Below are positions 6,901 to 52,025 of a stretch of DNA of 64,000 nt, one piece after another (the first letter of the stretch is position 1; every line of letters begins with the position of its first letter). Source of the DNA: a virus; IMG/VR virus record IMGVR_UViG_3300001918_000004, one strand, 5' to 3'. Both the position numbers and the translations under genes were made by a program. Under the pieces are notes generated by a model. It was not told the origin of the DNA and did not search any database. It saw only the letters and a program-made list of their open reading frames with translations.

Positions 6901-8846
6901 CACGTAACAGTTAAGCCGCTGTACAGCGTAATCTCAACCAACGGTGAATCTGCTTCGGTTTGTCTAAAGCGGGTATTCACCCATTCCGAACCAGTCCACA
7001 CCGTTACATCTTTCCCTACGATGTCTTTGATTTGACGCACACCTTTGTGGGTTGCAACGAACGTTTCACCAACAAAACATGGATTCGTGCCGTAACGCAA
7101 CAAGCGGTGACGTAATTCGGGGTAAGGCATCTGCGGATAATGCTCTCTAATCCAGGCCTCACCTTGCCCTTCGTCTAATGCTCGAATGAAAGACAGCTTT
7201 TCTGAACGGGTGTGCCATAGGTCAGCGTTACACCGAGCAATTGACTCGTTAGCGTAAAGAATCGCACCTTCACCGGATTCGTACTGTTTCGTGACGGCCT
7301 CTAACACTTCTTCGTAGGTCGGCTTGTGATGGAACACTCGAGACAGATTCGCCATACGCATGGCATCACGGTCTGGATCTATGACCCAACTCCCGTCCGG
7401 TTTCTGCTCCCACAAATTGTCTTTAGCGACTTTGAACCGCTGATCTGCGTAATTTCCGATTTGAATGTTCGCAGAGTTGTGCGTCAACACACCATTCGCA
7501 AAGAAGCAGTGGGCTTCTTCCACTTCGATGTCGAGCACTGGAACGAGGTTGTGTAATCGCTTATGCACAATCAAATCCGGTACTAACCCATCCGGCGTGT
7601 TGCGGAGCATGTAATCGCCGGTGTACGTGAAGATAGCGGGAGACCACACGGCTTCTGGGTAGTAACGGCACGGCGTTTCAGGTTCTTTGCCAGCGATACG
7701 CAAGATGCGGTACTGAAGCGAGTCTTTAATGATTACGGCGTTGCGGTGTCGATCTGTACAACGCAGTGCCGTACCACTTTCAAGCATGAACTCCCACGTC
7801 TGCTGGTAGCCTTGCCGAAAGACGTTTAGCACTTTACGCAGACCGATGGGGGTCTGCACTAAATCCCCAACTTGAATGTCTTTGATTGGGACTGCGCCTT
7901 TGTCTGTGTCTATCGGAGTATCTTCAGGTAAGCAACGACGGACGTTTCCGGCAACCACTGCAAGACCGGCTTCGTTGAGCAACAAGCACGCTGTTACACT
8001 GTCCAAACGTGAATCTAACGCGTTGTTCAAATACCGAGCGGCGTTGATGAAAAGATCAGGCAATCGGCTAGGGTTACTACGACCGCCAAACCCTTTAATA
8101 CGCGCACCTTGTTTACGGACGTGGCTAATATCGACAACGACGTGAATAGGCTCTGTTTCAGATACGCCTTGCGCTACGTTTGGCGGAAGTTCTGTGTCTG
8201 ATGTAGCTAACCGCATGAAAGAGCGATACGCTTCAACCCAGCCTTCTCTACTGTCTCCAACGCGAATCGTGACCTGTAGCACGTTGTCCGAGTTGCGTTC
8301 AGCGTACTTTGTGGTTTTTGGATACCCTGGATGGACTGCACCAAACGAACCTTGAATCTCCACCGAAAGTCTGTGACAGATGAATGGAGCTTTTTCAGGT
8401 TCCAAAAATACAAGCTCTAGGTTTGCACCTGTACCTGAACCTTGACACAGCAAATCAAACAATACGGCGATGTCGTCTGTATTTTCGATGTTGCGGGAGC
8501 AGCAGTTGTACAGCCCGTAATAGTTTTCAGGGCGTTGTGACCATTCGGTTCCGGCGACCCATAAGTTGCGTCCGCTGGGTAGTGCGTACAGCGAATACAG
8601 ATGCGAGTACAGCAGCGAATCTGTATCTAGCTGCCGATAAAAATCCTCGACTTGTTCTGGGGTATAGCCTAACGCCTGTAAAAACTGGCGTTCGTATTCG
8701 GGTGAGACTTTACCCATGGACACGAGTCCGTCATACACGCGTTTGCAGGTTTCTGGCCATGTTTCACGAGACCCATCCTTGTGAAATCGAGCGTATGTCC
8801 GAAAATACACGGGATCTGCGAGGGGAGCGTTAGCGGGGAAATACAT
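3984..8846 (-). CDS. nrdJ: Class II (adenosylcobalamin-dependent) ribonucleotide reductase with three inteins; about 825 aa after splicing
   Basis: PVYFRTYAR..ETW, PSGRNLW, YNCC, VVAGNVRR/SA, TNP/CGE active-site loop, QPAG/TKSLL, C-terminal ACDSDKC. Probable start is the ATG at 8846. Confidence 0.93.
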   Translation of the reverse strand: MYFPANAPLADPVYFRTYARFHKDGSRETWPETCKRVYDGLVSMGKVSPEYERQFLQALGYTPEQVEDFYRQLDTDSLLYSHLYSLYALPSGRNLWVAGTEWSQRPENYYGLYNCCSRNIENTDDIAVLFDLLCQGSGTGANLELVFLEPEKAPFICHRLSVEIQGSFGAVHPGYPKTTKYAERNSDNVLQVTIRVGDSREGWVEAYRSFMRLATSDTELPPNVAQGVSETEPIHVVVDISHVRKQGARIKGFGGRSNPSRLPDLFINAARYLNNALDSRLDSVTACLLLNEAGLAVVAGNVRRCLPEDTPIDTDKGAVPIKDIQVGDLVQTPIGLRKVLNVFRQGYQQTWEFMLESGTALRCTDRHRNAVIIKDSLQYRILRIAGKEPETPCRYYPEAVWSPAIFTYTGDYMLRNTPDGLVPDLIVHKRLHNLVPVLDIEVEEAHCFFANGVLTHNSANIQIGNYADQRFKVAKDNLWEQKPDGSWVIDPDRDAMRMANLSRVFHHKPTYEEVLEAVTKQYESGEGAILYANESIARCNADLWHTRSEKLSFIRALDEGQGEAWIREHYPQMPYPELRHRLLRYGTNPCFVGETFVATHKGVRQIKDIVGKDVTVWTGSEWVNTRFRQTEADSPLVEITLYSGLTVTCTPEHKFFLLGLDQTKHADELVKGDVLHWTPLYANTSPETGQRALMLADKDSNVTEEDAYVWGYERQFDADTLQLVFTLGSPYQLSFLAGFYDAFGSYLGAGKNLLPTYDVIMRSDDEAQVVQTLLQLNRIYSIRRLDPETRRIRVRCAGIHALSIAVRLPLKRLQRDTAIPMPDIPTSIDKYFTVRRVRNLDTTAPVYCCTVEDTHRFTLANQLVVHNCGEVIGSDFMCSLSDVHLIRFVNTPWDLTRIKLAFIVSALMNASHLHQNFHEDRFRYSREIDPITQVTFTGAVDYFVALFGQRWLEWWQAGRPHRWGKTVQTLDYIPLSIHKEHDIAGYQACESLVFLYLERTLLSQWKEVVERTISLYCKQQNLRCPTRFTGHQPAGCTDLLQVRNLDQGLLYYDEAEKCSSRSVRGIPSLLSFTNTYQPLRLVVFRNGRQIYFTRNHRIQMHNTGEWKCAKDLQPGDVCFHVLGNYTSKFPHVTRQEDGDVYAVQHLNVITAPVARFLAMYWVCGYSYGEGEDTIWFTTKREHAFKVLSDAVKELFQIKLKLNNRSNKVFEASITFPALARWLERTGVAKLDGNAIPDRIPTIVRKSSAEAIIAFIGAVIEMKGRLNKDRKVTVAFSNWSTLSCFQQCAEAVGIPLLIEQPVKPSIHYHKNPAWRLIFQERNTPWGVDELLREYSPLYKGVQGKAQSGPFNPFLYEVQEVRDLNEVEAEIRNLRTWDITVDAMDEDNGAWYFTGALNSHNTKSLLTGSSPGIHLPKGQYFIRRVTFAVNDPVALACQDYGYKIVPGQGSTDANGKLLDDPYDPRVKEWLVEIPTKVSWADTVAETDIDIASMPFDAQWDFYMQNQKHWTTFNTSATLELTREEIPIAARCIFEAIHSDEGYISAALLARFNDSETFPRLPFEPIDAGTYHTLVAEVEQRRKTSDFSAALREYDLAVDEANRNEGLGGMACDSDKCLISGGN
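4650..5741 (-). mobile_element. Intein 3 in NrdJ (364 aa, LAGLIDADG-like endonuclease)
   Basis: Begins CTDLLQV, has FTRNH and AFIGAVIEMKG, ends TGALNSHN; +1 residue is Thr. Confidence 0.85.
6246..7079 (-). mobile_element. Intein 2 in NrdJ (278 aa, partial LAGLIDADG region)
   Basis: Begins CFVGETFV, has CTPEH and FLAGFYDAFG, ends LANQLVVHN; +1 residue is the Cys of NP-C-GE. Confidence 0.9.
7476..7934 (-). mobile_element. Mini-intein 1 in NrdJ (153 aa, no endonuclease)
   Basis: Begins CLPEDTPIDT, has block B CTDRH, ends FFANGVLTHN; +1 residue is Ser. Confidence 0.9.
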
Positions 8847-8859
8847 AGTAACCACAGTG

Positions 8860-9852
8860 TTAGGGAAGACAATGAAGCGAACCAATCAACACCTGACTTG
8901 CAGGACTGACCGGCGTGTAGGCGTGTGTAAGTTTTCCGGTGTGCGGAATTTGCTCCACATACCGGACACGTAACTTACTCTTTTCTTGCCGCAATCCGTT
9001 CAACTGGTTGCGACGAAACATCTTGTGATACTGACTTAAAGACCGAACATGTTCTTGCTCTCTGAAAAACCGCAACGCCGGTTCGACAGATAACGGAATG
9101 ACTCGGTGATCAAACTTACGCAGGGTCACATAGTAGCTAAACGGTAATGTGCCCCAGGCCTGTCCTTGGTTCATCAAGTCCAAACCTTTGGATGACGTAA
9201 AGACTTTCTTGCTGTAACAGACTTCAAACGGAAGGTTTAGACGCGCTAAAACAGATGCCAGAACTTGAGCACTTTCTTTGTCGGGCACACGGACACGACA
9301 ACCGATAGTTAAATTTTTGGTGATGTGCCAGTAACCCACTACAGAACACATCCGACCTACAAATTCCCACAAAGATTCTTCTGTAAGTTCTTTGAAATAT
9401 TCAAGCAAATACGCAGCTAGTGATGTGCGTTCAGATACGAGTCGCAGCAGCAGTTCATCATCGTCGTGATACCCGACATTGACGTGCGGAATTTGTTCAC
9501 CGTAACGCCGAATGGATGGCGATGTAGCTTTGACCGGCGGTACATAAAACGCCGGTTGCAGGGCTGTGTTTTCGATAGTGTCTGCTTGGTTTAGGTGTTG
9601 ATGTACAGACATATCACCTAACGCTGTCGGCAATCGTTGATCCTCTGTTACGTCTATGCTGTAGCCATTGCTTAGCGTTAAGCGATAGAGCGCAACAGAG
9701 TTCGGCACAACGATTTGCTTGAACTGCATCGGTAGCCACATCAGTCCGGTGCTAACCAAAACAGGATCGGCGTACTTCCAGGCGTCTGCAACCGACATCA
9801 ATCCAAATCTGGTAATCAGGACATTAGTTCCGAGAACGGCCATTAGATGCAA
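8860..9852 (-). CDS. Free-standing degenerate intein-like (Hint + LAGLIDADG-like) protein
   Basis: AVLGTNVLITRFGLMSVAD resembles block A; LYRLTLSNGYSIDVTEDQR resembles block B with His replaced by Gln; EFVGRMCSVVG resembles LAGLIDADG; the C-terminal beta region lacks the terminal HN. Confidence 0.6.
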   Translation of the reverse strand: MHLMAVLGTNVLITRFGLMSVADAWKYADPVLVSTGLMWLPMQFKQIVVPNSVALYRLTLSNGYSIDVTEDQRLPTALGDMSVHQHLNQADTIENTALQPAFYVPPVKATSPSIRRYGEQIPHVNVGYHDDDELLLRLVSERTSLAAYLLEYFKELTEESLWEFVGRMCSVVGYWHITKNLTIGCRVRVPDKESAQVLASVLARLNLPFEVCYSKKVFTSSKGLDLMNQGQAWGTLPFSYYVTLRKFDHRVIPLSVEPALRFFREQEHVRSLSQYHKMFRRNQLNGLRQEKSKLRVRYVEQIPHTGKLTHAYTPVSPASQVLIGSLHCLP

Positions 9853-28451: not shown

Positions 28452-28802
28452 TTAGTTTGTAGATCGGGTTAACATCCAATGCAGGCACTTCACAATGACA
28501 TCGCCGTGGCATGGTTTAGGGGCACAAAAGCACACGAGTTTCACATGCTGCCGTTGAGCTAATTCCAGCAACGCATTGAGTTCAGACATGACTGCGGCAT
28601 CGTTGTCTTGAACTTTACGCCACAACCATTTTCGATAGTTTGCAATGACCGCTTCTCTCGAGTTGTCTTTGCTTATGTGATACGGGTTAGCAAGTGCGCT
28701 ACCTGGCTTACCCTTGCCGGGACGTCCGATGTACCAGCCATCATCAAACCCAACGATGTACCCGTTTACTACGGACAAGTTAAGCGTTCTTTCTTGCTCC
28801 AT
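28452..28802 (-). CDS. DUF4326 family protein
   Basis: YIGRP..ANPY..REAVIANYRKWL..LVCFCAPKPCHGDVI. Confidence 0.9.
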   Translation of the reverse strand: MEQERTLNLSVVNGYIVGFDDGWYIGRPGKGKPGSALANPYHISKDNSREAVIANYRKWLWRKVQDNDAAVMSELNALLELAQRQHVKLVCFCAPKPCHGDVIVKCLHWMLTRSTN

Positions 28803-28819: not shown

Positions 28820-29611
28820 TTATTTCAAAAAGTCCGGCACAACGAAGTCAAAGAACAAGTTGTTAAGCCCCGCAGCGGACGAACTGAACTTTCCGGCTGT
28901 AAACGCTTGCTTGTGAAACTTATCAAACGTTGTTTCAATCCATGCGTTTAAACCTTCGTTTGGTGCGCCTTTAGAAAGTTCGCCTTGCTGCTTTAGGTTC
29001 AACATGTCTTGGACATCTGTTTTAACGCTGTACGGAATGTCCGAACCTGCCATTAATTTGTGCAACTCAATCGGAGGCATAGACTGCGCTTCGGCAATCC
29101 AAATACACGCCAGCAAAGATCGCACAACGTACAGGTAGCGTTTGTACTCGCATACTTCTTTGCCGTCGATGTACTTCCTGTAATTACCTGACGCTAGATG
29201 CAGGTAGTGGAATGTCGCTGTTTTCGGGTTAAACACATGGGCCATGCTTTGACGTAGCGTTTGAATTGCACCTGTGTCTGTGTACACGATAGGCGAATGC
29301 AACCACTCAAAGAAGCTTGGGTTTGACTTATAGGCCTGGAATAAAGCTTTTTGAATATCCCAACCGCTGAAATCTAGCTTAGTTTCTGGACTAAGCCACT
29401 GTAAGTTATCTTTTCCTGGTGTGATGCTGAGGTAGTTAGACAACGGCCTGCGGTACACGAAACGCACATCCCAATCTGAGTCTTGTGAGGCGAATCCCCA
29501 CGCACGAGAGCCGGATTCAATGGCGAATAAAATCTCAATGCCGTGCGCTTTTTCGAGCCTTTGCAGCACGAGAAGAATGGTCTCTTTCATGATCTTTTGC
29601 GGTGTCTCCAA
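28820..29611 (-). CDS. Pol-beta superfamily nucleotidyltransferase (RlaP/YcgL-like)
   Basis: AIESGSRAWGFASQDSDWDVRFVY; GWDIQKAL; NPSFFEWLHSP; KRYLYVVR. Confidence 0.9.
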   Translation of the reverse strand: METPQKIMKETILLVLQRLEKAHGIEILFAIESGSRAWGFASQDSDWDVRFVYRRPLSNYLSITPGKDNLQWLSPETKLDFSGWDIQKALFQAYKSNPSFFEWLHSPIVYTDTGAIQTLRQSMAHVFNPKTATFHYLHLASGNYRKYIDGKEVCEYKRYLYVVRSLLACIWIAEAQSMPPIELHKLMAGSDIPYSVKTDVQDMLNLKQQGELSKGAPNEGLNAWIETTFDKFHKQAFTAGKFSSSAAGLNNLFFDFVVPDFLK

Positions 29612-45251: not shown

Positions 45252-45540
45252 ACGCTATACGGTATTCTCCGTCTGAATCACGCCGCAATCGAACGACGTT
45301 AGGGAAACGTCCAGTGAGTCCGTGAATTATGATGACTAACGCCACTGCAATTTCTTGCAGCTTTGGTAGCACAATACACACTTCGGAAGCCCCCTGGACG
45401 TAGGGTTCGATATATTCCGTGAGTTTTGCGTACATGGACGCATCGTTGAGGTTTACGTGGGGTGAAGGCACGTCCACGAAACCTTCAGCTTTTAGCACTT
45501 GGTTTTCGTGCCCTGACAGGTTTAGTTTGATTTGCTGCAT
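45181..45540 (-). CDS. Csx15-like protein (cyclic-oligoadenylate binding/ring-nuclease family)
   Basis: LNLSGH...VLPKLQEIAVAL..IHGLTGRFPNVVRLR..YRIAFVQNLHALR..ARTRR follows the Csx15 pattern LNFSH..PxL..A..LxxLHGxxGxFP..RLR..F...E..NLQxxR..AR. Confidence 0.7.
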   Translation of the reverse strand: MQQIKLNLSGHENQVLKAEGFVDVPSPHVNLNDASMYAKLTEYIEPYVQGASEVCIVLPKLQEIAVALVIIIHGLTGRFPNVVRLRRDSDGEYRIAFVQNLHALRNNVARTRRKLVVVL

Positions 45541-45895
45541 TTACATTAAGTACCTCGATCAAGTTAGCGGCTGCGTCGTTTGTGATGTACAAATACCGAC
45601 CCGGCCAGCCCACACTGAGTCGGTACACATCGGAGCGATGTCTTAAGGGTGCCAAGTCACTGACGTGGTTCGGATTAACCCACGTGTTGTCAGCGACTTG
45701 CACATACTTGTGTTCTTTAGCCATGCGCTGCAAGTACAGCAATTCATGGTTGTTGTTTCCGATGGTTTCGGCGTAGTATTCACCCCGCTCGAAAACCACA
45801 ACTTTATTTCGGTCTGGCCAATACACAAACGCTGAAATGTGGTCAGGATCGCACATCAGCGTGTACGGCTTGGTGGTTATTAACAGTTCAGGCAT
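45485..45895 (-). CDS. LytTR-like domain protein, putative
   Basis: DPDHISAF and YVQVADNTWVNPNHVSDL resemble LytTR I.YIE and F.R.HRS..VN...I. Confidence 0.4.
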   Translation of the reverse strand: MPELLITTKPYTLMCDPDHISAFVYWPDRNKVVVFERGEYYAETIGNNNHELLYLQRMAKEHKYVQVADNTWVNPNHVSDLAPLRHRSDVYRLSVGWPGRYLYITNDAAANLIEVLNVNAANQTKPVRARKPSAKS

Positions 45896-46181
45896 GATTT
45901 AGTTCGTCCATCGCGGTATCAATTTGGTTACGAACCCGATTGATACCGCCGATGTAGGCGTTATCGTCCGTAGCCATCCGTGTGATTGTTTCTTGGGTGA
46001 ACAGTCCTGCTGCTTTAAGCATGACTAAACACCGTTCCTTTTGCCCTGTCTCGAGTTCCTCCAGTCTTCCGCATGCGACGGCGCAAATGGTGCTGGCTAG
46101 GAACCAACTATCGACCACGGCACGCCCATCAGGGAGCGGCTCAAAGTCGGAAAATCCATGCAGCCAGTTGTTTATTAGCAC
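45888..46181 (-). CDS. Hypothetical protein
   Basis: 97-aa ORF. Confidence 0.55.
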   Translation of the reverse strand: MLINNWLHGFSDFEPLPDGRAVVDSWFLASTICAVACGRLEELETGQKERCLVMLKAAGLFTQETITRMATDDNAYIGGINRVRNQIDTAMDELNHA

Positions 46182-46190
46182 GTAATCTCC

Positions 46191-46385
46191 TTACTCACGG
46201 CACGGTAATTTTGCCAATTCTTCTTGCACACGGATCAGCGTTTCCTCTGCCTCACGCCGTGCCTGTTGTAGGCGTTCTTGAGCAGTTAGGTTATCCGCTA
46301 CATCGACCGGTTTTTTGATTACTCGGACAATTCGAGGTGCCATTATGCAGCCTCCTGGGTTACGCATGCACGGGTTAACTGCCAA
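46191..46385 (-). CDS. Hypothetical protein
   Basis: True start probably MAPRIV. Confidence 0.45.
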   Translation of the reverse strand: MAVNPCMRNPGGCIMAPRIVRVIKKPVDVADNLTAQERLQQARREAEETLIRVQEELAKLPCRE

Positions 46386-46594
46386 GACAGCCTTAGAGCG
46401 TCTTGATTAGACATCATCAACGCGCCTTTGCGACGTAATCGCCGCACCATGCGTTCGTCGATGGCGTACCGTACGTCATCGTAGTTGATGGCAAACCAGT
46501 TGGATAATGCAGCGTCGTAGCAGACGGCTACAATCGTGGATTCCGGCATAAAACACCTCCGTGTGCGTGTGGTTACGAAAAAGTAACGGCACAA
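46343..46594 (-). CDS. Hypothetical protein
   Basis: True start probably MPEST after GGAGGT. Confidence 0.5.
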   Translation of the reverse strand: MCRYFFVTTRTRRCFMPESTIVAVCYDAALSNWFAINYDDVRYAIDERMVRRLRRKGALMMSNQDALRLSWQLTRACVTQEAA

Positions 46595-46692
46595 CCGAAG
46601 TCATGCCGCTACGTTGTTGTGTGTGTGGTAGAGGGAAGGGTTATTTATATTGCGCCACCACTTCAGGCACATCGGCTTAAGGGATAAGCCTA

Positions 46693-46778
46693 CGCCCCAG
46701 GCTGGACTCGAACCAGCTACACAACGCTATCAGGAGGCCCGAAGGCTGATAACGCCATGTATCCCACGTAACTGGAGC
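46693..46778 (-). ncRNA. tRNA-like RNA 1 with non-canonical anticodon arm
   Basis: Acceptor GCTCCAG/CTGGGGC; T-arm GCTGG-TTCGAGT-CCAGC; 10-bp stem GCGTTATCAG/CTGATAGCGT with a 12-nt loop. Confidence 0.7.
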
Positions 46779-46786
46779 ACAGGAGG

Positions 46787-47071
46787 TTAGGTAGCGTACC
46801 GCTTAGCTACCTTTTCGCCCCACAAACAGCAGCCTAACGCCGCTACTGTGGTTTGAACTAAGGCTTTTGCCTCTGCGTGCCCTAACTTAATGGGCTTAGC
46901 GTTGGGTTGAGTGCGGTACAAACGCCCGTTTCGGGCCGTAATGCAGATTTCAGACTGCACACCAACTAACGGCTGGATGTGGTAGCCGAAAATTAACTGC
47001 ACACCCAATTTGTACCCGACAAACTCACCTTGGGCGTTAAAGAAAGCTTCAGACAAACGAATCGTAAACAT
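46787..47071 (-). CDS. Hypothetical protein
   Basis: GGAGA precedes the ATG. Confidence 0.55.
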   Translation of the reverse strand: MFTIRLSEAFFNAQGEFVGYKLGVQLIFGYHIQPLVGVQSEICITARNGRLYRTQPNAKPIKLGHAEAKALVQTTVAALGCCLWGEKVAKRYAT

Positions 47072-47080
47072 GTTTATCTC

Positions 47081-47269
47081 CTACTTATGGAGGGTGACTT
47101 TTAGCGTGTCTCCACCTTCGGGTGGCGTGTATGTGAAAGTAACGTTGTCGTTGGTCGTGAACCCTAATGCACGCAACAAGCGCAGCAACAAATACCGCCG
47201 TCGGGTGACGACGTTGAAGCAATAGCGTTGTGCTGCACGCAGTATTGCTTCGATGCCTTCAGTTGTCAT
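47081..47269 (-). CDS. Hypothetical protein
   Basis: GGAG precedes the ATG. Confidence 0.55.
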   Translation of the reverse strand: MTTEGIEAILRAAQRYCFNVVTRRRYLLLRLLRALGFTTNDNVTFTYTPPEGGDTLKVTLHK

Positions 47270-47297
47270 GTTTTAACTCCTGTTCAATTTGATGACG

Positions 47298-47723
47298 TCA
47301 ATCGCAGGGTTCCTCTTGGAAATCTTTGAGAACCTTACGCAATGCGTCGGACACCGTAGGGTCTCCGTAGTCTGTGAGTAACGACCACACGGTATCGCCT
47401 ACCCACAGCAACGCCCCGTCTGTGTCGTTGTTAGATACCTCCACATACGTCGTGTTGTTGAATTGCTTTTTAACGGTGCATCCGTATCCGGCTGCTTCAA
47501 GCTCTTTGACGATTTGGTTCACTAGAGGGGTCTGACGAATCTTAATCGACACTACTGTTTCGGTGTCGTTGTCTCGTCTGATAACCCATTCGTTGCCACT
47601 TTGCCGCATGTACCCTAGTGCTTTGAGCACTGTAACTAAAATTTCGTCCCGCAGGACAAACGACACGTCGTATTGAGCCTGAATGGACTCGACGACGGCG
47701 GTCAAAATATCCAGTAACGCCAT
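47298..47723 (-). CDS. Hypothetical protein
   Basis: ATG 47723 follows the repeated leader. Confidence 0.65.
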   Translation of the reverse strand: MALLDILTAVVESIQAQYDVSFVLRDEILVTVLKALGYMRQSGNEWVIRRDNDTETVVSIKIRQTPLVNQIVKELEAAGYGCTVKKQFNNTTYVEVSNNDTDGALLWVGDTVWSLLTDYGDPTVSDALRKVLKDFQEEPCD

Positions 47724-47738
47724 AATAAAAAACCTCAA

Positions 47739-47966
47739 CTACACAGCTTCGATGGCTTCGCGCTCTTCGCGCTCGACTAAATCCCAATACCGGGACAATT
47801 TTGCCTTTTCGACGGCACGACTGAAATGCTCGTGCGTGCCGACATAATGCATGTTCTCGGCGGGCACGGTCAATCGGACATGGTGCTCCATTGAAGCGAA
47901 CTTGTGCTCCATAACGTACCAAGGGGTACGTTTTATTTCTATGTACTCGTGCGGGTTATTCCGCAT
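47739..47966 (-). CDS. Hypothetical protein
   Basis: ATG follows the repeated leader. Confidence 0.65.
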   Translation of the reverse strand: MRNNPHEYIEIKRTPWYVMEHKFASMEHHVRLTVPAENMHYVGTHEHFSRAVEKAKLSRYWDLVEREEREAIEAV

Positions 47967-48090
47967 AAAAAAACCTCAACTACACAACAAAAAAACAGCG
48001 ACACACCTAAAAGCATGTCGCTGCCTGTATTACCTTATGGAGATAGATAATTACTTATTATGCGCCATTACCCACGGCGCAGAATGGGAC

Positions 48091-48372
48091 TTAATCTTCG
48101 TCGGCGTCGTCCTCCCACTCCATGAGCCGTGTTATCCAGTTGTGCTCTACGGAGTTCTGTTCTTGCGGGTAATGTTCACCTCGTCTATAAAACCTTTCCG
48201 ATGTTTTTTCCATACCACCGCACGGCATTCGCTCCCACGTCTGTATGCACAGCAAGCTCCAGCCGGTGTACCGCTGGAAAAACTGCAAAATTCCATGCAA
48301 ATCCGTCGATTGATTGGGGTCTCCGTGCAGTAAATATTGCTCGTCCCGTTTAGTCACATACAGCGTTTTCAT
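48091..48372 (-). CDS. Hypothetical protein
   Basis: ATG follows the repeated leader. Confidence 0.65.
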   Translation of the reverse strand: MKTLYVTKRDEQYLLHGDPNQSTDLHGILQFFQRYTGWSLLCIQTWERMPCGGMEKTSERFYRRGEHYPQEQNSVEHNWITRLMEWEDDADED

Positions 48373-48428
48373 AATAAAAAACCTCTCAACTACACAACAA
48401 CAAAATTAACCGCTGCAATGAACGGTTA

Positions 48429-48513
48429 CGCCTCGTGCAGGAATCGAACCTGCTGCTACGTCGCAAACAAACTCCACTAAGTTTGCAACGCATCCTCCCA
48501 TGAGGTACGAGAC
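48429..48513 (-). ncRNA. tRNA-like RNA 2 with non-canonical anticodon arm
   Basis: Acceptor GTCTCGT/ACGAGGC; D-arm CTC-ATGG-GAG; 10-bp stem CGTTGCAAAC/GTTTGCGACG with a 12-nt loop; T-arm GCAGG-TTCGATT-CCTGC. Confidence 0.7.
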
Positions 48514-48557
48514 AAAAAACACACGCCGTAGCAAGTTATTGTTGTTGCGGCGTGTGT
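48514..48557 (-). terminator. Rho-independent terminator-like hairpin
   Basis: ACACACGCCG/CGGCGTGTGT arms followed by a T run on the minus strand. Confidence 0.55.
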
Positions 48558-48622
48558 GTATGTATTCAATATGTCCCATCATTTGCGTGGTACTTTAACG
48601 TCATTTCACGCCGGACTGAGTA

Positions 48623-48862
48623 TTAGCCGATAATGACACGTTTCAGTGTCTTCAAATGCGTCTGCACGTGCTGCGGCTGTAACGCAATTTTTGCGTCACG
48701 TTTCGCACGTTTTCGCTCAATTATTTTCTCGACTGTGCGTGGTTCCGGCAGTGGGACGCCGGTAAGGTTACTAAGCTGCGTTTGCCATGCGTCGGGCACG
48801 TAGTTAGGCCCGACAGCAGCAACGGTTGCATTGTTTTTACGCAATTCAATTATTTTCGGCAC
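48623..48862 (-). CDS. Hypothetical basic protein
   Basis: GGGAGG precedes the GTG start. Confidence 0.55.
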   Translation of the reverse strand: MPKIIELRKNNATVAAVGPNYVPDAWQTQLSNLTGVPLPEPRTVEKIIERKRAKRDAKIALQPQHVQTHLKTLKRVIIG

Positions 48863-48970
48863 GGTACCTCCCTAACGCTACAAAAAAAACCGAAACGACA
48901 ACTGTTTTAACTTAGAAACCCCAAGCACTCGCAGTTGTTTCACGAATGCTTGGGGTTATCCTTTTGTCGA

Positions 48971-49315
48971 TTAGAGGGCGATTAGATCACCTTGGGCGGG
49001 CGAATAGGCTCCGGCTCCCCATGTGGTCGTGTAGGACGTGGAGTTGATTGAATAGCCGGAGAACCTGCGGTCGTACACCTTAATTGCTTTTTGCATCTTG
49101 TTTTTTCGGTAGGTGCATATCTGCCTTAAGTCGGCGTAGTAACCGTCCCAATGGGCGCATGGCGTGCTGTACCATGACACCTCTAACGTTGTTGCTGTTG
49201 CGTCGGATTCAAATTCTAAAAGAACGTCTCGAAAATCGTTTACAGGTTTGTCTCCATAAAAAGCGGAGTATCCGGTTTTACGATCACATTTCATTGTTCC
49301 GTATGCGGTTGACAT
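48971..49315 (-). CDS. Hypothetical protein
   Basis: AGAGGA precedes the ATG. Confidence 0.6.
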   Translation of the reverse strand: MSTAYGTMKCDRKTGYSAFYGDKPVNDFRDVLLEFESDATATTLEVSWYSTPCAHWDGYYADLRQICTYRKNKMQKAIKVYDRRFSGYSINSTSYTTTWGAGAYSPAQGDLIAL

Positions 49316-49482
49316 AACAAAATCCTCTCTGTGAATACCACGTACTTATATCCCGCTGGTGGTGTGCAGCGGCATGGAATTAAGCCCCACGCACGTGTAC
49401 GCACTTAAAAAAAAGCGTTACGTGGTGGGGCCTAATAAAAAAAACCTAAATGCTTCCTCTTTCGGTTTTTAGGCAGCACAAA

Positions 49483-49520
49483 GACCCCAGCCAGTATCCG
49501 AGGGGATACCAGCCAGGGTC
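49483..49520 (-). terminator. 17-bp hairpin downstream of the first early gene
   Basis: GACCCTGGCTGGTATCC/GGATACTGGCTGGGGTC pairs fully (with G-U pairs) only on the minus-strand RNA, followed by TTT. Confidence 0.65.
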
Positions 49521-49552
49521 TAAGGCTACCGTCTTTATGCGCTAGGTGCGGT

Positions 49553-50647
49553 TTAGGTGGTGGTGGTTTCGGTGGTTTCGGCTTCTACAGGCTTGGCCTG
49601 GGCCTGGGCCACTTTCTTGGTGCGCGGGGTGCGCGCTTTCTTGCTAGGGGCAGGGGTTGGGGCTTGGGGTACAGATTGTAACCCAAGGTTGGCGATGTAA
49701 TCAACAGCGGCCATGATGTCGTCAATCGCATTGAGTGCGACGATCTGACCATCCGATAGCATACCAGCATCAGCCAGTTGATTAAACTTGATAGCCAAGC
49801 TAATCGCACTCTGAGTGCTATGGGACGGCACTGGACGGGGTAACGGCTCGATAATACCTTTGGCGGCAAAGGTATCCATTACCGCACCCCAAGGGTTATC
49901 GGTAACGTACTTGAGTACGGCATTAGCTTCAGACAAGGCTTCAGCGTCAGCATTGGCTATCACAGTGTACCGACGGGCAACTAACTCAGACATAAAACTG
50001 TCCACGTGTTCCCATTCCCACTTAGAAGGGTTAGGCTTGGAATTGGCACGTTCCCAATCCACCAGGGCCTTGGGCTTGACCGTACCATAAACCATCTTGT
50101 CAGTGGTATATTCAATGGTCACGCGTCCGGCCTCACGGGCTTTAGCGTAGTTAGCCAAGAATCTACTAGCATCCTGACAAAACTTGGGAAGCTTACCCTT
50201 AGCCATGTCCGGTGATTTAGCTTTGAGTTGGTTGCGATACCACTCAACAGCCGGTTTAATCACGGGTATGGTCTTGTTGAGCCATTCCAAAGATTCATCA
50301 TGCAAATCGCTCATGTGCATCGCATTGAGCGCGACGTGTATCTTATTCTGGCCGGTCAAGCTATAGTTAAGCGCAATGAACACGATGTTAACGGCAACGC
50401 TTGGGTTATTAACATCCGCACAAAACTGAGCCAAGTTATACACTGCGCTGTCGATCAAGCCATCTTTGCGGTACTGTAAACGCTCAAGAGCATAGCTAAA
50501 CACGTCACCCTGGCAGGTGAACACGTTTTGTGCCAGTTCGCTCTTGATAAAATCAGCTAACGCTTGATCCCACAAGAGATCAAACTTAGCTTTAGCCGTT
50601 TTAGCGGCCGCATAGATGGCATCGTACGCGTTTTGAGTGTATTCCAT
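49553..50647 (-). CDS. Hypothetical protein, first gene of the leftward block
   Basis: AGGAG precedes ATG 50647; Lys/Ala/Thr-rich tail; distinct codon usage. Confidence 0.75.
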   Translation of the reverse strand: MEYTQNAYDAIYAAAKTAKAKFDLLWDQALADFIKSELAQNVFTCQGDVFSYALERLQYRKDGLIDSAVYNLAQFCADVNNPSVAVNIVFIALNYSLTGQNKIHVALNAMHMSDLHDESLEWLNKTIPVIKPAVEWYRNQLKAKSPDMAKGKLPKFCQDASRFLANYAKAREAGRVTIEYTTDKMVYGTVKPKALVDWERANSKPNPSKWEWEHVDSFMSELVARRYTVIANADAEALSEANAVLKYVTDNPWGAVMDTFAAKGIIEPLPRPVPSHSTQSAISLAIKFNQLADAGMLSDGQIVALNAIDDIMAAVDYIANLGLQSVPQAPTPAPSKKARTPRTKKVAQAQAKPVEAETTETTTT

Positions 50648-51143
50648 GATTTGTCTCCTTAAAGTGAATGAACAATGAATGAACAAAAGTTTAGTCAGTT
50701 CACACTACGGGACGATCATGCCCTCACTCATGGGGGCGTGATCGCCCCCTAGCGCATAGGTTTCGGATTCAGTTGTCAAGGTACAGAACATAGGCCCATC
50801 GCAGTTTGAAAGCTGCTGTTACCTATGCCGATTACATAAGTGGCACACACACCCTTGTAAGGGGTGGGTGGGATGTGGTAGGCTATCTTCCCCCCACAAC
50901 CTAAGTATGCCTCACTCCACCCCTCAAACTAGGGTAGGCTGGGCTAAGGTTAGGTCTGGAGTATGCCTGTTTACAATGGATGCAGGGTATTGGGATGCCG
51001 TCTAAAAAAACCTAATAACCCCATCCAAATTTTCCTCATATCCCCCAGCCAAAAAGCCTCAACCAGCCCTCAAATTCACAAAACCTGCGTTAACCCTACA
51101 CTAAGATCAGTTAATCCCTGTTAGTTCAAACGCCATAAAAGCC

Positions 51144-52025
51144 ATGACTTACGTCCAACATCTGCTGTGGGATATATACCCAAACGAAGTCGAAGCCATT
51201 CTTCGCAAAGCCAAAGTATCCCCAGACATCACCGCCACAATCCCCACTGACCTAGAGCCTCCAGCAGCCCTCAACAAATACTCACCCGAGGAACTTGAAG
51301 CTCTACGCCTCGAACCGTGGTCACACCTCAACGCCGAACAACAAGCCATCCGCAAATACTTCAAACGAGTCAGTGCCATCAAGCAACGCAGCAACCGAGC
51401 AAGAGCTTTAACGCACACTCAAATCCGGCACGTGGACATCGATTGGGAACAAGTCGAGCAAGAATACATTCAAGGCAGCACCAATGCCAGAGGCCATCAT
51501 GTCTATCCCACGCACGAAGCCTTAGCCGAGAAATACGCCTGTTCCATCACCACACTCCGCAACAAAGCCAAAACAAACCAATGGACACTCAAGCGCAACC
51601 TGTTCCGACAAAAGCTGCGTCAATTCCGTGAAACCGAGTTCATTGGTGCGTTACTCACAAAAGGCACCAATCTCGACGAAAAGCATCTCAGCAAAATCGA
51701 GATGATGCATGAGTTCATCGACAGCTACTTTGAAGACATCCGCAACCGCAGTGCAGACACTCCTTTAGACATCAAAGGCTTAGAAAGCGTCATGCGAATC
51801 CTCAAAGAAGCTCACGCCTTAGCGAAAGACATCACGCTGCAAGGTCAAATGACCCGTGACGAAGCTAAGAAGTTCATCGAAGAGATGCGTACAGCCCAAT
51901 TGGTCGAAATGGCTCGACAGAGTGGTGATGTGGCTGCTGCGGAAAACAACAACAAGCTAGACGCTCTCAAAGCCGAGCTTGCTGCCACAGAAGCCCGTAA
52001 ACGTGAACTGCTCGGACAACTCTAA
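51144..52025 (+). CDS. Terminase small subunit-like HTH protein
   Basis: IDWEQVEQEYIQG..THEALAEKYACSITTLRNKAKTNQW followed by coiled coils. Confidence 0.6.
   Translation: MTYVQHLLWDIYPNEVEAILRKAKVSPDITATIPTDLEPPAALNKYSPEELEALRLEPWSHLNAEQQAIRKYFKRVSAIKQRSNRARALTHTQIRHVDIDWEQVEQEYIQGSTNARGHHVYPTHEALAEKYACSITTLRNKAKTNQWTLKRNLFRQKLRQFRETEFIGALLTKGTNLDEKHLSKIEMMHEFIDSYFEDIRNRSADTPLDIKGLESVMRILKEAHALAKDITLQGQMTRDEAKKFIEEMRTAQLVEMARQSGDVAAAENNNKLDALKAELAATEARKRELLGQL

What the first reader, a model, noticed from the sequence alone, without database searches (positions are those of the whole stretch)
46693..48513. Two tRNA-like RNAs sharing a non-canonical architecture
Both elements (46693-46778, 86 nt; 48429-48513, 85 nt; minus strand) have a 7-bp acceptor stem, G discriminator, canonical T-arm (TTCGA.T loop) and a GG-containing short D region. 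In place of the anticodon arm, both have a 10-bp stem with a 12-nt loop, with different stem sequences that each pair fully. One loop contains a CC-TTCG-GG mini-hairpin. Retention of the same abnormal geometry in two divergent copies argues for selection rather than decay. Inference: they may be tRNA mimics, such as decoys for anticodon nucleases or other tRNA-sensing defences, RNase P/RNase Z processing signals in the early transcript, or a new ncRNA class.
Basis: partly seen in the sequence, partly recalled or inferred. Interest (0 to 1): 0.75.

Follow-up and report, generated by a model that had tools for sequence, protein, structure and literature searches.

The report
Anticodon-less tRNA-Arg look-alikes in a phage
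An uncultured, cyanophage-like virus carries two genes for RNAs that copy the top half of its probable host's arginine tRNA but have a sealed rod where the codon-reading loop should be, so they are tRNA look-alikes that cannot decode, and what they do has not been tested.

Summary
E1 (46693-46778, minus) and E2 (48429-48513, minus) share one fold: a 7-bp acceptor stem, G73, no encoded CCA, a canonical T arm, a reduced GG-containing D arm, and a 10-12 bp helix closed by 12 nt in place of the anticodon arm. A covariance model built from E1 alone finds E2 (31.8 bits, E 1.5e-5) and nothing else in the window. All 25 pairs form in both copies, and 12 differ on both sides.

New here: the two are derived from cyanobacterial tRNA-Arg(UCU). 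E1's acceptor stem (including U3·G70), U8, T arm and G73 are identical to that tRNA in two filamentous cyanobacteria. Its 25-nt 3' half occurs in only 5 of 185,579 species genomes.

They are not decoding tRNAs. Rfam's tRNA model gives no hit, and ARAGORN's "tRNA-Cys" reading of E2 costs 24 kcal/mol against the minimum-energy fold.

I found no homologue in phage, viral-contig, metagenome or genome collections. No RNA data were available, so the function is inferred. The readings I rank highest are a stable tRNA decoy cut out by RNase P and RNase Z (about 0.35) and a processing signal in the early transcript (about 0.25).

This scan has noted similar anticodon-less tRNA mimics in other phages. 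In print, the T4 small RNAs C and D are the nearest kind.

The parts
46693..46778 (-). E1, an 86-nt tRNA-Arg(UCU)-derived non-decoding tRNA-like RNA gene. Acceptor 5' strand 46772-46778; D region 46756-46771; long arm 46724-46755, with its 12-nt loop or UUCG cap at 46734-46745; variable region 46718-46723; T arm 46701-46717; acceptor 3' strand 46694-46700; discriminator G at 46693.
   Evidence: Sequence; fold; covariance models R1 and R2; identity to cyanobacterial tRNA-Arg(UCU).
48429..48513 (-). E2, an 85-nt diverged paralogue with the same fold. Acceptor 5' strand 48507-48513; D region 48491-48506; long arm 48459-48490 (extendable to 48457-48492), with its 12-nt loop at 48469-48480; variable region 48454-48458; T arm 48437-48453; acceptor 3' strand 48430-48436; discriminator G at 48429.
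   Evidence: Found by the E1-only model at 31.8 bits, E 1.5e-5; pair counts; fold.
48519..48557 (-). Strong hairpin plus U-run (terminator-like) ending 6 nt before the first base of E2. It is either the end of the upstream unit or a structured 5' leader of the E2 precursor.
   Evidence: One search found the 16-pair stem on the + strand. On the minus strand it is followed by UUUUUU.
48407..48428 (-). Hairpin starting immediately after the E2 discriminator, followed by AUUUUGUUG. It is the 3' trailer of E2, and the first trailer base is U.
46674..46690 (-). Small hairpin (GGCUUA/UAAGCC) beginning 3 nt after the E1 discriminator. It is the 3' trailer of E1, and the first trailer base is U.
   Evidence: Read directly.
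46583..46612 (-). Terminator-like hairpin (13 pairs, UUCG loop, U-run) about 80 nt downstream of E1. It is the probable end of the transcription unit that contains E1.
46787..48372 (-). Five small ORFs of unknown function (93, 75, about 141, 62 and 94 aa) bracketed by E2 and E1. Three are preceded by the leader motif GUGUAGUUGAGG(U)n-AUG. The last ORF stops 8 nt before E1.
   Evidence: No Pfam or PHROG family matched any of them.

Best explanation
E1 and E2 are two paralogous genes for non-decoding, tRNA-shaped RNAs that descend from a cyanobacterial-type tRNA-Arg(UCU).

Shown: they keep a 7-bp acceptor stem, G73, no encoded CCA, U as first trailer base, a canonical T arm and GG in the D loop. 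The 7-nt anticodon loop is replaced by more helix. The result is a 5-bp proximal stem shared by both copies (GCGUU with AGCGU or GACGU) that continues into a copy-specific distal helix closed by 12 nt. In E1 the closure can be a cUUCGg cap with a CUCC bulge.

Inferred: host RNase P and RNase Z cut them out of the early transcripts, as they do the host's CCA-less tRNA genes, and they receive CCA. The mature RNAs of about 88 nt cannot reach the decoding site. They accumulate as stable look-alikes of the upper half of host tRNA (E1 exactly that of tRNA-Arg(UCU)). There they occupy a host factor that recognises the tRNA body or 3' end, most plausibly a tRNA-directed defence or toxin enzyme. Trimming of the neighbouring early mRNAs would be a side effect.

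My odds: a selected non-decoding tRNA-Arg derivative, about 0.85. Excised by RNase P and RNase Z, about 0.6. Acts in trans as a decoy or competitor, about 0.35.
For: Shared fold and selection. The E1-only model finds E2 with all pairs standard. Pairing is 100%, and 12 of 25 pairs are compensatory, 8 of 10 in the long helix. The arm is 32 nt in both copies although its distal sequence differs (alignment).

tRNA-Arg origin. In 151 evenly sampled cyanobacterial genomes, the eight best matches to model R2 were all tRNA-Arg(UCU). E1's acceptor (both strands, with U3·G70), U8, T arm and G73 are identical to tRNA-Arg(UCU) of Cyanobacteria bacterium FACHB-471 and Leptolyngbyaceae SM1_4_3. The 25-nt 3' half is exact in only 5 of 185,579 species genomes. 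It is the only DNA shared between window 44-64 kb and those two genomes.

Not decoding. There is no Rfam tRNA hit even at E 10. The ARAGORN cloverleaf for E2 scores -14.1 kcal/mol against -38.1 for the minimum-energy fold.

Processing signals. Host tRNA-Arg genes also lack CCA and have U after G73.

Context. The elements sit in an early region of small accessory genes. The same phage encodes RlaP (PF10127, 1.6e-65), an RNA-repair nucleotidyltransferase reported to be required for restoring aminoacylation of heavily damaged tRNA (bioRxiv 10.64898/2025.12.29.696909). tRNA damage is therefore a plausible selective pressure on this phage.
Against: There is no expression, end-mapping or binding evidence of any kind.

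No homologues exist outside this contig, so all covariation rests on two paralogues.

E2's acceptor differs from E1's at 5 of 7 pairs and has no match within 3 mismatches to any tRNA in the five cyanobacterial genomes tested. Exact mimicry of one host tRNA therefore cannot be the whole requirement.

A nuclease that reads the anticodon loop would have nothing to recognise.

E2 starts right after a terminator-like hairpin and has no obvious promoter.

RlaP lies 17 kb away, and no RNA ligase, Pth, TROVE or toxin-related gene is adjacent.
Confidence: 0.38

Rival explanations
1. Cis-acting processing signals (tRNA punctuation). The tRNA-shaped modules exist so that RNase P and RNase Z cut the early transcript at defined points. 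E2 sits before, and E1 8 nt after, a cassette of five small genes. The cuts would set the ends and stability of the mRNA, and the excised RNAs would have no role of their own.
For: E2 and E1 bracket exactly one block of five small ORFs, and E1 begins 8 nt after a stop codon. The acceptor, T arm and elbow, which are what these enzymes need by established knowledge, are the best-kept parts. E2's acceptor sequence is free to drift while its pairing is kept. Terminator-like hairpins are dense in this region, 16 found against 6.4 expected, which suggests elaborate transcript architecture.
Against: A processing signal does not need an anticodon arm at all. Yet both copies keep a perfect helix of the same total length through 8 compensatory changes. 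It also does not need E1's exact identity to host tRNA-Arg(UCU). A strong terminator lies inside the cassette, after the first gene.
Confidence: 0.25
2. Non-ribosomal aminoacyl carriers. E1 and E2 would be charged (E1 perhaps by ArgRS, through A20 in the GGGAUA D loop and the host acceptor). They would then hand the amino acid to a transferase rather than to the ribosome.
For: E1 has an intact host-type acceptor stem, G73 and a D loop keeping GGAUA as in host tRNA-Arg. Non-decoding aminoacyl-tRNA donors exist in bacteria by established knowledge, for example in cell-wall Fem-type transfer.
Against: By established knowledge of E. coli-type ArgRS, charging depends strongly on C35, which here would sit on a much longer arm. 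No aminoacyl-transferase family was found near the elements. E2 has a different acceptor.
Confidence: 0.08
3. Decaying relics of phage tRNA-Arg genes (pseudogenes), with no function.
For: Related cyanophages carry a real tRNA-Arg(UCU), for example Pam2. AGA and AGG are minor codons in this phage, so such a tRNA might be dispensable. No homologues show conservation.
Against: All four helices are perfect in both copies although the copies differ in sequence throughout, and 12 pair changes are compensatory. The inserted segment extends the helix rather than disrupting it. The T loop and acceptor are intact.
Confidence: 0.07
4. E1 is, or contains, an attachment or recombination site for the host tRNA-Arg(UCU) gene.
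For: E1 shares 25 nt of exact identity (34 nt at 94%) with the 3' end of the host-type tRNA-Arg(UCU) gene. This is the usual layout of tRNA-targeting integration sites.
Against: No integrase family was found in any ORF tested, including the 364-aa gene nearby. The 5' acceptor strand is also present at the right distance to close a full tRNA-like fold. E2 has the same fold without host identity. No window protein is encoded next to tRNA-Arg(UCU) in 10 cyanobacterial loci. About 25 kb of the 88.9-kb source contig could not be inspected.
Confidence: 0.04
5. Genuine decoding tRNAs whose anticodon arm carries a short intron or an unusual loop.
For: In intron mode, ARAGORN can draw E2 as tRNA-Gln(UUG) with a 19-nt intron. 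At a lowered threshold it can draw E1 as tRNA-Glu(UUC) with a 5-nt intron. Without introns it calls E2 tRNA-Cys(GCA).
Against: These drawings require C at position 33 or 37, non-canonical intron positions, or an anticodon stem with only 3 of 5 pairs. The Cys drawing is 24 kcal/mol worse than the minimum-energy fold. The three readings disagree with one another. No splicing route for such mini-introns is known in bacteria or phages (established knowledge). The Rfam tRNA model gives nothing.
Confidence: 0.02

Closest known systems
Cyanobacterial tRNA-Arg(UCU) (canonical tRNA, Rfam RF00005)
   Same: For E1, the acceptor stem with U3·G70, U8, the T arm and G73 are identical. The D loop keeps GGAUA, part of the variable region is alike, CCA is not encoded, and U follows G73. 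tRNA-Arg(UCU) is the best match to the E1+E2 model in the eight top-scoring of 151 sampled cyanobacterial genomes.
   Different: There is no 7-nt anticodon loop and no anticodon. The arm is a 10-12 bp rod closed by 12 nt. The D stem is reduced to 3 bp (or absent in E1's minimum-energy fold). The RNAs are 85-86 nt long instead of 73-74. There is no Rfam tRNA hit.
Phage T4 small stable RNAs rnaC (species 1, 139 nt) and rnaD (species 2, 119 nt)
   Same: These are phage-encoded small RNAs of unknown function beside tRNA genes. In T4 they directly follow tRNA-Arg. rnaC ends in a tRNA-type T arm and a closing stem, with long hairpins where the anticodon arm would be.
   Different: There is no sequence or model homology. 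R2 scores 14.1 bits on rnaC, below T4's ordinary tRNAs. They are much longer and have different internal helices. They lie in a tRNA cluster, whereas E1 and E2 lie among early protein genes with no ordinary tRNA in the window.
YrlA-type bacterial and phage Y RNAs (Rfam RF02553)
   Same: A non-decoding RNA with a tRNA-like T arm and D arm and a long helix in the anticodon-stem position. There is a weak Rfam hit on E1 (18 bits).
   Different: The score is far below the gathering threshold (69). YrlA is circularly permuted: its ends lie in the long stem and its acceptor is closed. E1 and E2 have tRNA topology. No Pfam family at all, and so no Ro60/TROVE match, among the ORFs scanned, including every ORF of at least 450 aa except three that PHROGs identify as ribonucleotide reductase, DNA polymerase and primase/helicase.
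tRNA-like domain of tmRNA
   Same: An acceptor stem plus T arm, a D region that may be a stemless GG loop (E1's minimum-energy fold), and a long helix replacing the anticodon arm.
   Different: The helix is closed after 10-16 bp instead of leading to an mRNA-like domain. There is no tag reading frame. The wobble pair is U3·G70, not the G3·U70 alanine determinant. ARAGORN and the Rfam tmRNA models are silent.
Anticodon-less tRNA mimics noted earlier by this scan in other phages (unpublished AI notes, e.g. e1-5374137, e1-4035357, e1-4090673)
   Same: By their descriptions, they have the same design idea: the tRNA body is kept and the anticodon loop is sealed into a hairpin. Some are said to derive from tRNA-Arg and to carry a UUCG cap.
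   Different: I could not compare sequences. A look-up by sequence found no look-alike of E1. Several of those families sit behind a peptidyl-tRNA-hydrolase-like gene or a GIY-YIG nuclease, and neither is present here. In E2 the loop is an open 12-mer, not a tetraloop.

Membership tests
Canonical tRNA (RF00005) | 7-bp acceptor stem, discriminator, and 5-bp T stem with a UUCRANY loop | tested here: met
   Both copies meet this.
Canonical tRNA (RF00005) | 5-bp (at most 6-bp) anticodon stem with a 7-nt loop carrying U33, an anticodon and a purine at 37 | tested here: not met
   The helix is 10-12 bp with a 12-nt loop, and pair probabilities are 0.97-1.0 for all but E1's innermost pair, which instead joins the UUCG cap. 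Alternative ARAGORN drawings need mismatches or introns.
Canonical tRNA (RF00005) | Reaches Rfam's gathering score or is called by tRNA finders | tested here: not met
   There is no RF00005 hit at the gathering score or at E up to 10. ARAGORN misses E1 and calls E2 tRNA-Cys through a fold 24 kcal/mol worse than the minimum-energy fold.
tRNA-Sec (RF01852) and allo-tRNA | 8/5, 8/4 or 9/3 acceptor/T-stem configuration with a long variable arm in addition to an anticodon arm, and the Rfam gathering score | tested here: not met
   The configuration is 7/5, and one long arm stands in for both. E2 scores 18.6 bits against a gathering score of 47.
YrlA Y RNA (RF02553) | Permuted tRNA-like module with ends in a Ro-binding stem, an rsr (TROVE) gene nearby, and the Rfam gathering score | tested here: not met
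   E1 scores 18 bits against 69. The ends lie in the acceptor stem. No Pfam family at all, and so no TROVE match, among the ORFs scanned; the three long ORFs not put to Pfam are ribonucleotide reductase, DNA polymerase and primase/helicase by PHROGs.
tmRNA | G3·U70, a tag-peptide reading frame, and pseudoknots between the halves of helix 2 | tested here: not met
   The pair is U3·G70 in E1 and C3-G70 in E2. The helix is closed by 12 nt. There is no ARAGORN tmRNA call and no Rfam tmRNA hit.
T4 rnaC / rnaD | Sequence and structure homology to the T4 genes | tested here: not met
   R2 scores 14.1 bits on rnaC and has no full-length match on rnaD, only a 5.6-bit fragment (E 5.2) over 23 model positions. 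Both are below T4 tRNA-Arg at 21.4 bits.
Phage antisense RNAs processed by RNase P (P1 C4 / P4 CI type) | Loop sequences complementary to target sites in the same phage | tested here: not met
   Complements of both 12-nt loops occur in the window no more often than in shuffles. There is no Rfam hit. Only the 64-kb window could be searched.
Scan-noted 'anticodon-less tRNA mimics behind a Pth-like gene' | Located directly downstream of a peptidyl-tRNA-hydrolase-like gene | tested here: not met
   No Pfam or PHROG family, Pth or otherwise, matches any ORF from 45.9 to 50.6 kb. A fold-level comparison was not done.
RNase P / RNase Z substrates (functional class) | Cleavage at G1 and after G73, followed by CCA addition | not testable with these tools
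   Only the sequence prerequisites are present: an acceptor/T-arm minihelix, no CCA, and U at +1 as in the host genes.

The most novel reading that the evidence does not exclude
E1 is a bait. It is an uncleavable and unusable copy of the acceptor and T-arm half of host tRNA-Arg(UCU), mounted on a rigid rod. The phage makes it early to titrate a host immune enzyme that attacks or modifies tRNA bodies or 3' ends, or to hold a tRNA-Arg-specific factor. E2 would be a second bait with a different acceptor. If so, this is one instance of a broader, still undescribed phage strategy of anticodon-less tRNA decoys.
Probability: 0.22. Interest if true: 0.75.

Novelty: new variant of a known kind. Interest (0 to 1): 0.5.

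Why it matters
Phages are known to carry spare or resistant tRNAs against tRNA-cutting defences. A tRNA copy that has deliberately lost its anticodon would be a different tactic, acting by mimicry rather than replacement.

This pair is a clean test case for three reasons:
- Its parent tRNA can be named.
- One copy is letter-for-letter host-like in the half that processing enzymes and many toxins recognise.
- The same phage encodes the tRNA-repair enzyme RlaP.

The exact match also points to a Leptolyngbyaceae-like filamentous cyanobacterium as host of an otherwise unplaceable virus.

If the elements turn out to be only transcript punctuation, that would still be a rare example of tRNA-shaped mRNA processing signals outside organelles.

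Tried and rejected
**Homologue searches, all empty or yielding only ordinary tRNAs:**
- blastn of the 3-kb region, and of E1 and E2 alone, against 50,697 phage records.
- An exact scan and two degenerate pattern scans of IMG/VR.
- Two pattern scans of JGI metagenomes.
- Three further pattern scans of 185,579 species genomes. The exact E2 half and the insertion-tolerant tRNA-Arg pattern found nothing; the exact E1 half matched only ordinary tRNA-Arg(UCU) genes in two cyanobacteria and three archaeal MAG contigs whose genes I did not examine.
- Model R2 on Pseudanabaena phages PA-SR01 and Pam2, three PolA-related viral contigs, one contig related through the ubiquitin-like operon, and 151 cyanobacterial genomes.

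**Neighbouring proteins as handles:**
- The 94-aa and 364-aa neighbours have no relatives. The only hit was the source contig itself, 88,870 bp.
- Extending beyond the window failed because the proteins are not on record.

**Sequencing runs:** none was listed for the region, and no RNA holder was listed.

**Antisense-target idea:** loop complements occur at chance level.

**Kissing-loop idea:** CUCC in E1 against GGAG in E2 is only 4 nt, which is chance level by my own reading.

**Pseudoknots between the D region and the loop:** at most 3 bp.

**Other readings dropped:**
- ARAGORN's tRNA-Cys, Gln+intron and Glu+intron readings are rejected on energy and on positions 33 and 37.
- The idea that E1's UUCG cap is the sealed Arg anticodon loop (GCCUUC is shared with the host anticodon arm) is kept only as a possibility. 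The alternative alignment treats the proximal GCGUU stem as the old anticodon stem and the distal hairpin as an insertion replacing the loop. It is at least as good and is supported by the 34-nt match.
- No CRISPR-spacer-like match to the two candidate host genomes was found for window 24-64 kb.
Full report
**What is there.** Each has:
- a 7-bp acceptor stem;
- a G discriminator, with no CCA after it;
- a 5-bp T stem with loop UUCGAGU (E1) or UUCGAUU (E2);
- a short D region with GGGA;
- between the D region and the T arm, a perfect helix of 10 bp (12 in E2) around 12 unpaired bases.

Both fold far better than shuffles, with z-scores of -3.4 and -4.3. A covariance model made from E1 alone (R1) found E2 full length at 31.8 bits, E 1.5e-5, with every one of the 25 pairs standard. 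It found nothing else in the 64 kb above noise.

On the model-derived alignment, 100% of cells pair, against 33-43% when partners are slid by 1-3 columns. Twelve pairs differ on both sides, 8 of them in the 10-bp long helix. With only two sequences this is a small sample, but the pattern is what selection on structure gives, not decay.

The D arm is the uncertain part:
- The model pairs CGU/AUG in E1 and CAU/AUG in E2.
- E1's minimum-energy fold instead lengthens the rod to 15+3 bp with a UUCG cap and a CUCC bulge.
- E2's prefers a 4-bp CCUC/GAGG stem.

**Not a decoding tRNA.** Rfam has no tRNA hit at the gathering score, nor at E up to 10. The only weak hits are tRNA-Sec (18.6 bits against 47) and YrlA (18 bits against 69).

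ARAGORN misses E1 and calls E2 tRNA-Cys(GCA). Its drawing uses an anticodon stem with 3 of 5 pairs, taken from inside the long helix. That fold scores -14.1 kcal/mol, against -38.1 for the minimum-energy fold.

In intron mode ARAGORN offers Gln(UUG) with a 19-nt intron for E2. At a lowered threshold it offers Glu(UUC) with a 5-nt intron for E1. These readings disagree with one another, put C at position 33 or 37, and have no known splicing route in bacteria.

**Where they come from.** A scan of 185,579 species genomes with a degenerate form of the two 3' halves returned mostly tRNA-Arg genes. The hits that ARAGORN did not call were tRNA fragments, not E-like elements.

Model R2, built from E1 plus E2, was run on three cyanobacterial genomes and then on 151 evenly drawn ones.

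Aligned to these, E1 is identical to tRNA-Arg(UCU) of Cyanobacteria bacterium FACHB-471 and Leptolyngbyaceae SM1_4_3 in:
- both acceptor strands, including the U3·G70 wobble;
- U8;
- the whole T arm;
- G73.

It also keeps GGAUA in the D loop and much of the variable region. The 25-nt 3' half is exact in only five species genomes. Two are these cyanobacteria and three are archaeal MAGs. It is the only DNA that window 44-64 kb shares with the two cyanobacterial genomes, as 34 nt at 94%. The host genes likewise lack CCA and have U after G73.

E2 is further away. Its 3' half has no exact match anywhere and no match within 3 mismatches in five cyanobacterial genomes. It is 21 of 25 identical to the common cyanobacterial tRNA-Arg(UCU).

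E1 and E2 share features that the tRNA lacks: UGGGA in the D loop, and AUG(G)CGUU at the base of the long helix. I therefore read them as paralogues that split after the arm was remodelled. E1 has stayed, or has been refreshed to be, host-identical.

The simplest anatomy is a 5-bp proximal stem (GCGUU with AGCGU or GACGU) standing for the old anticodon stem, with a copy-specific hairpin replacing the 7-nt loop. An alternative is that E1's GCC-UUCG-GGC cap is the old CUUCUAA loop sealed shut. That rests on a 6-nt match and stays open.

**Surroundings.** The window is a phage-like contig with minus-strand genes from about 50.6 kb downwards. They include ribonucleotide reductase, family A DNA polymerase, primase/helicase, an exonuclease and a ubiquitin-like conjugation operon.

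The nearest polymerases are those of Pseudanabaena phages PA-SR01 and Pam2, at 29% identity. This fits a cyanobacterial host.

E2 and E1 lie in the first 4 kb of that transcription direction, among small ORFs without any Pfam or PHROG family. They bracket five such ORFs. Three of these have the leader GUGUAGUUGAGG-U-run-AUG, which occurs exactly three times in the window, all here.

E2 begins 6 nt after a 16-pair hairpin with a U-run and is followed at once by another hairpin. E1 begins 8 nt after a stop codon and is followed by a small hairpin and, 80 nt on, a strong terminator. There is no ordinary tRNA in the window.

No integrase, homing nuclease, peptidyl-tRNA hydrolase, TROVE or RNA ligase family was seen in the ORFs tested. 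Seventeen kb away the phage encodes RlaP (PF10127, E 1.6e-65). RlaP is an RNA-repair nucleotidyltransferase that adds one or two nucleotides to damaged RNA 3' ends and is reported to be needed to restore aminoacylation of heavily damaged tRNA (bioRxiv 10.64898/2025.12.29.696909; PMC7824862).

**Relatives.** I found none. The searches and their call numbers are listed under Tried and rejected. The source contig (88,870 bp) could not be extended, and no sequencing run was listed.

Everything about conservation therefore rests on the two paralogues and on the comparison with the parent tRNA.

**How it most likely works.**

Shown:
- the fold;
- its maintenance by compensatory change;
- the tRNA-Arg(UCU) ancestry;
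- the loss of the anticodon loop.

Inferred from established knowledge of tRNA maturation: the acceptor/T-arm minihelix with a GG/T-loop elbow, no CCA and U at +1 is what RNase P, RNase Z and the CCA-adding enzyme need. The RNAs are therefore probably cut out and finished like host tRNAs (about 0.6).

What happens next is open, and I rank the options as follows.
- **Trans-acting decoy or competitor for a factor that reads the tRNA body or 3' end: about 0.35.** The rod is kept at constant length by compensatory change, and E1 keeps exact host identity in precisely the half such factors contact. Neither feature is needed for mere processing. The presence of RlaP shows that tRNA damage matters to this phage.
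- **Transcript punctuation: about 0.25.** It is favoured by the bracketing of one gene cassette and by E2's free-drifting acceptor.
- **Aminoacyl carrier: 0.08.**
- **Relic of a tRNA gene: 0.07.**
- **Attachment site: 0.04.**
- **Odd decoding tRNA: 0.02.**

A decoy for nucleases that read the anticodon loop itself is unlikely, because that loop is gone.

**Comparison with what is known.** These RNAs are tRNA derivatives but fail the defining anticodon-arm feature. I therefore do not file them as tRNAs, and they fail the tests for tRNA-Sec or allo-tRNA, YrlA and tmRNA (membership table).

In kind they resemble the unexplained small stable RNAs of T4, rnaC and rnaD. Those sit right after T4 tRNA-Arg, and rnaC ends in a tRNA-type T arm. 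There is no homology, however: R2 scores 14.1 bits on rnaC, below T4's tRNAs.

This scan has noted about three dozen 'anticodon-less tRNA mimics' in other phage genomes. Some are said to derive from tRNA-Arg and to be UUCG-capped. Those are unchecked AI notes. A sequence look-up found no look-alike of E1, and the gene neighbours reported for several of them (Pth-like genes, GIY-YIG nucleases) are absent here.

**Verdict.** The finding is a real, selected pair of non-decoding look-alikes of host tRNA-Arg(UCU) in a novel cyanophage-like genome. It is a new variant of a known but poorly understood kind. The function is inferred only, the interest is moderate, and direct experiments to settle it are available.

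Noticed in passing
window 28820-29611 (-): A full-length RlaP nucleotidyltransferase (PF10127, E 1.6e-65; phrog_14344), which belongs to an RNA-repair pathway. The next gene downstream is a DUF4326 protein (28452-28802). No RNA ligase was seen in the window, although RlaP usually accompanies one.
   Followed up: partly
window 47734-47744, 47975-47985, 48385-48395 (-): The leader motif (U)UGUUGUGUAGUUGAG(A)GG plus a U-run and AUG precedes three of the five small genes between E2 and E1. Its core GTGTAGTTGAG is exact only at these three places in 64 kb. E1's variable region and T-stem start (GUUGUGUAGCUGG, 46714-46725) resemble it in 11 of 12 positions, which may be chance or shared descent.
   Followed up: partly
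window 45500-51200: The early region is unusually rich in terminator-like hairpins: 16 found against 6.4 ± 2.5 in shuffles. Nearly every small gene has one of its own.
   Followed up: no
window 3984-8885 (-): A 1633-aa ribonucleotide reductase ORF matches the PHROG profile in four separate stretches. This suggests one or more inteins or other insertions.
   Followed up: no
L022:1711-1792 (+), L011:566-653 (+) and L011:2194-2275 (-) (IMG/VR contigs): These are unrelated viral contigs with tRNA-shaped elements that ARAGORN does not call. Each has a 7-bp closing stem and a canonical T arm but non-standard internal hairpins. For example, L022 has z -3.5 with two hairpins in place of the D and anticodon arms. 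Odd tRNA-like RNAs seem common in viral contigs.
   Followed up: partly
window 46693-46778 versus L147 and L148: The exact match of E1 to tRNA-Arg(UCU) of Cyanobacteria bacterium FACHB-471 and Leptolyngbyaceae SM1_4_3 points to a Leptolyngbyaceae-like filamentous cyanobacterium as the host lineage. No spacer-like matches to those two genomes were found in window 24-64 kb.
   Followed up: partly
window 49553-50647 (-): The first gene of the minus-strand early unit (364 aa, Pro/Ala/Lys-rich tail) has no family and no relative among 5.8 billion proteins other than itself. It is followed by a very strong terminator at about 49480-49520.
   Followed up: partly
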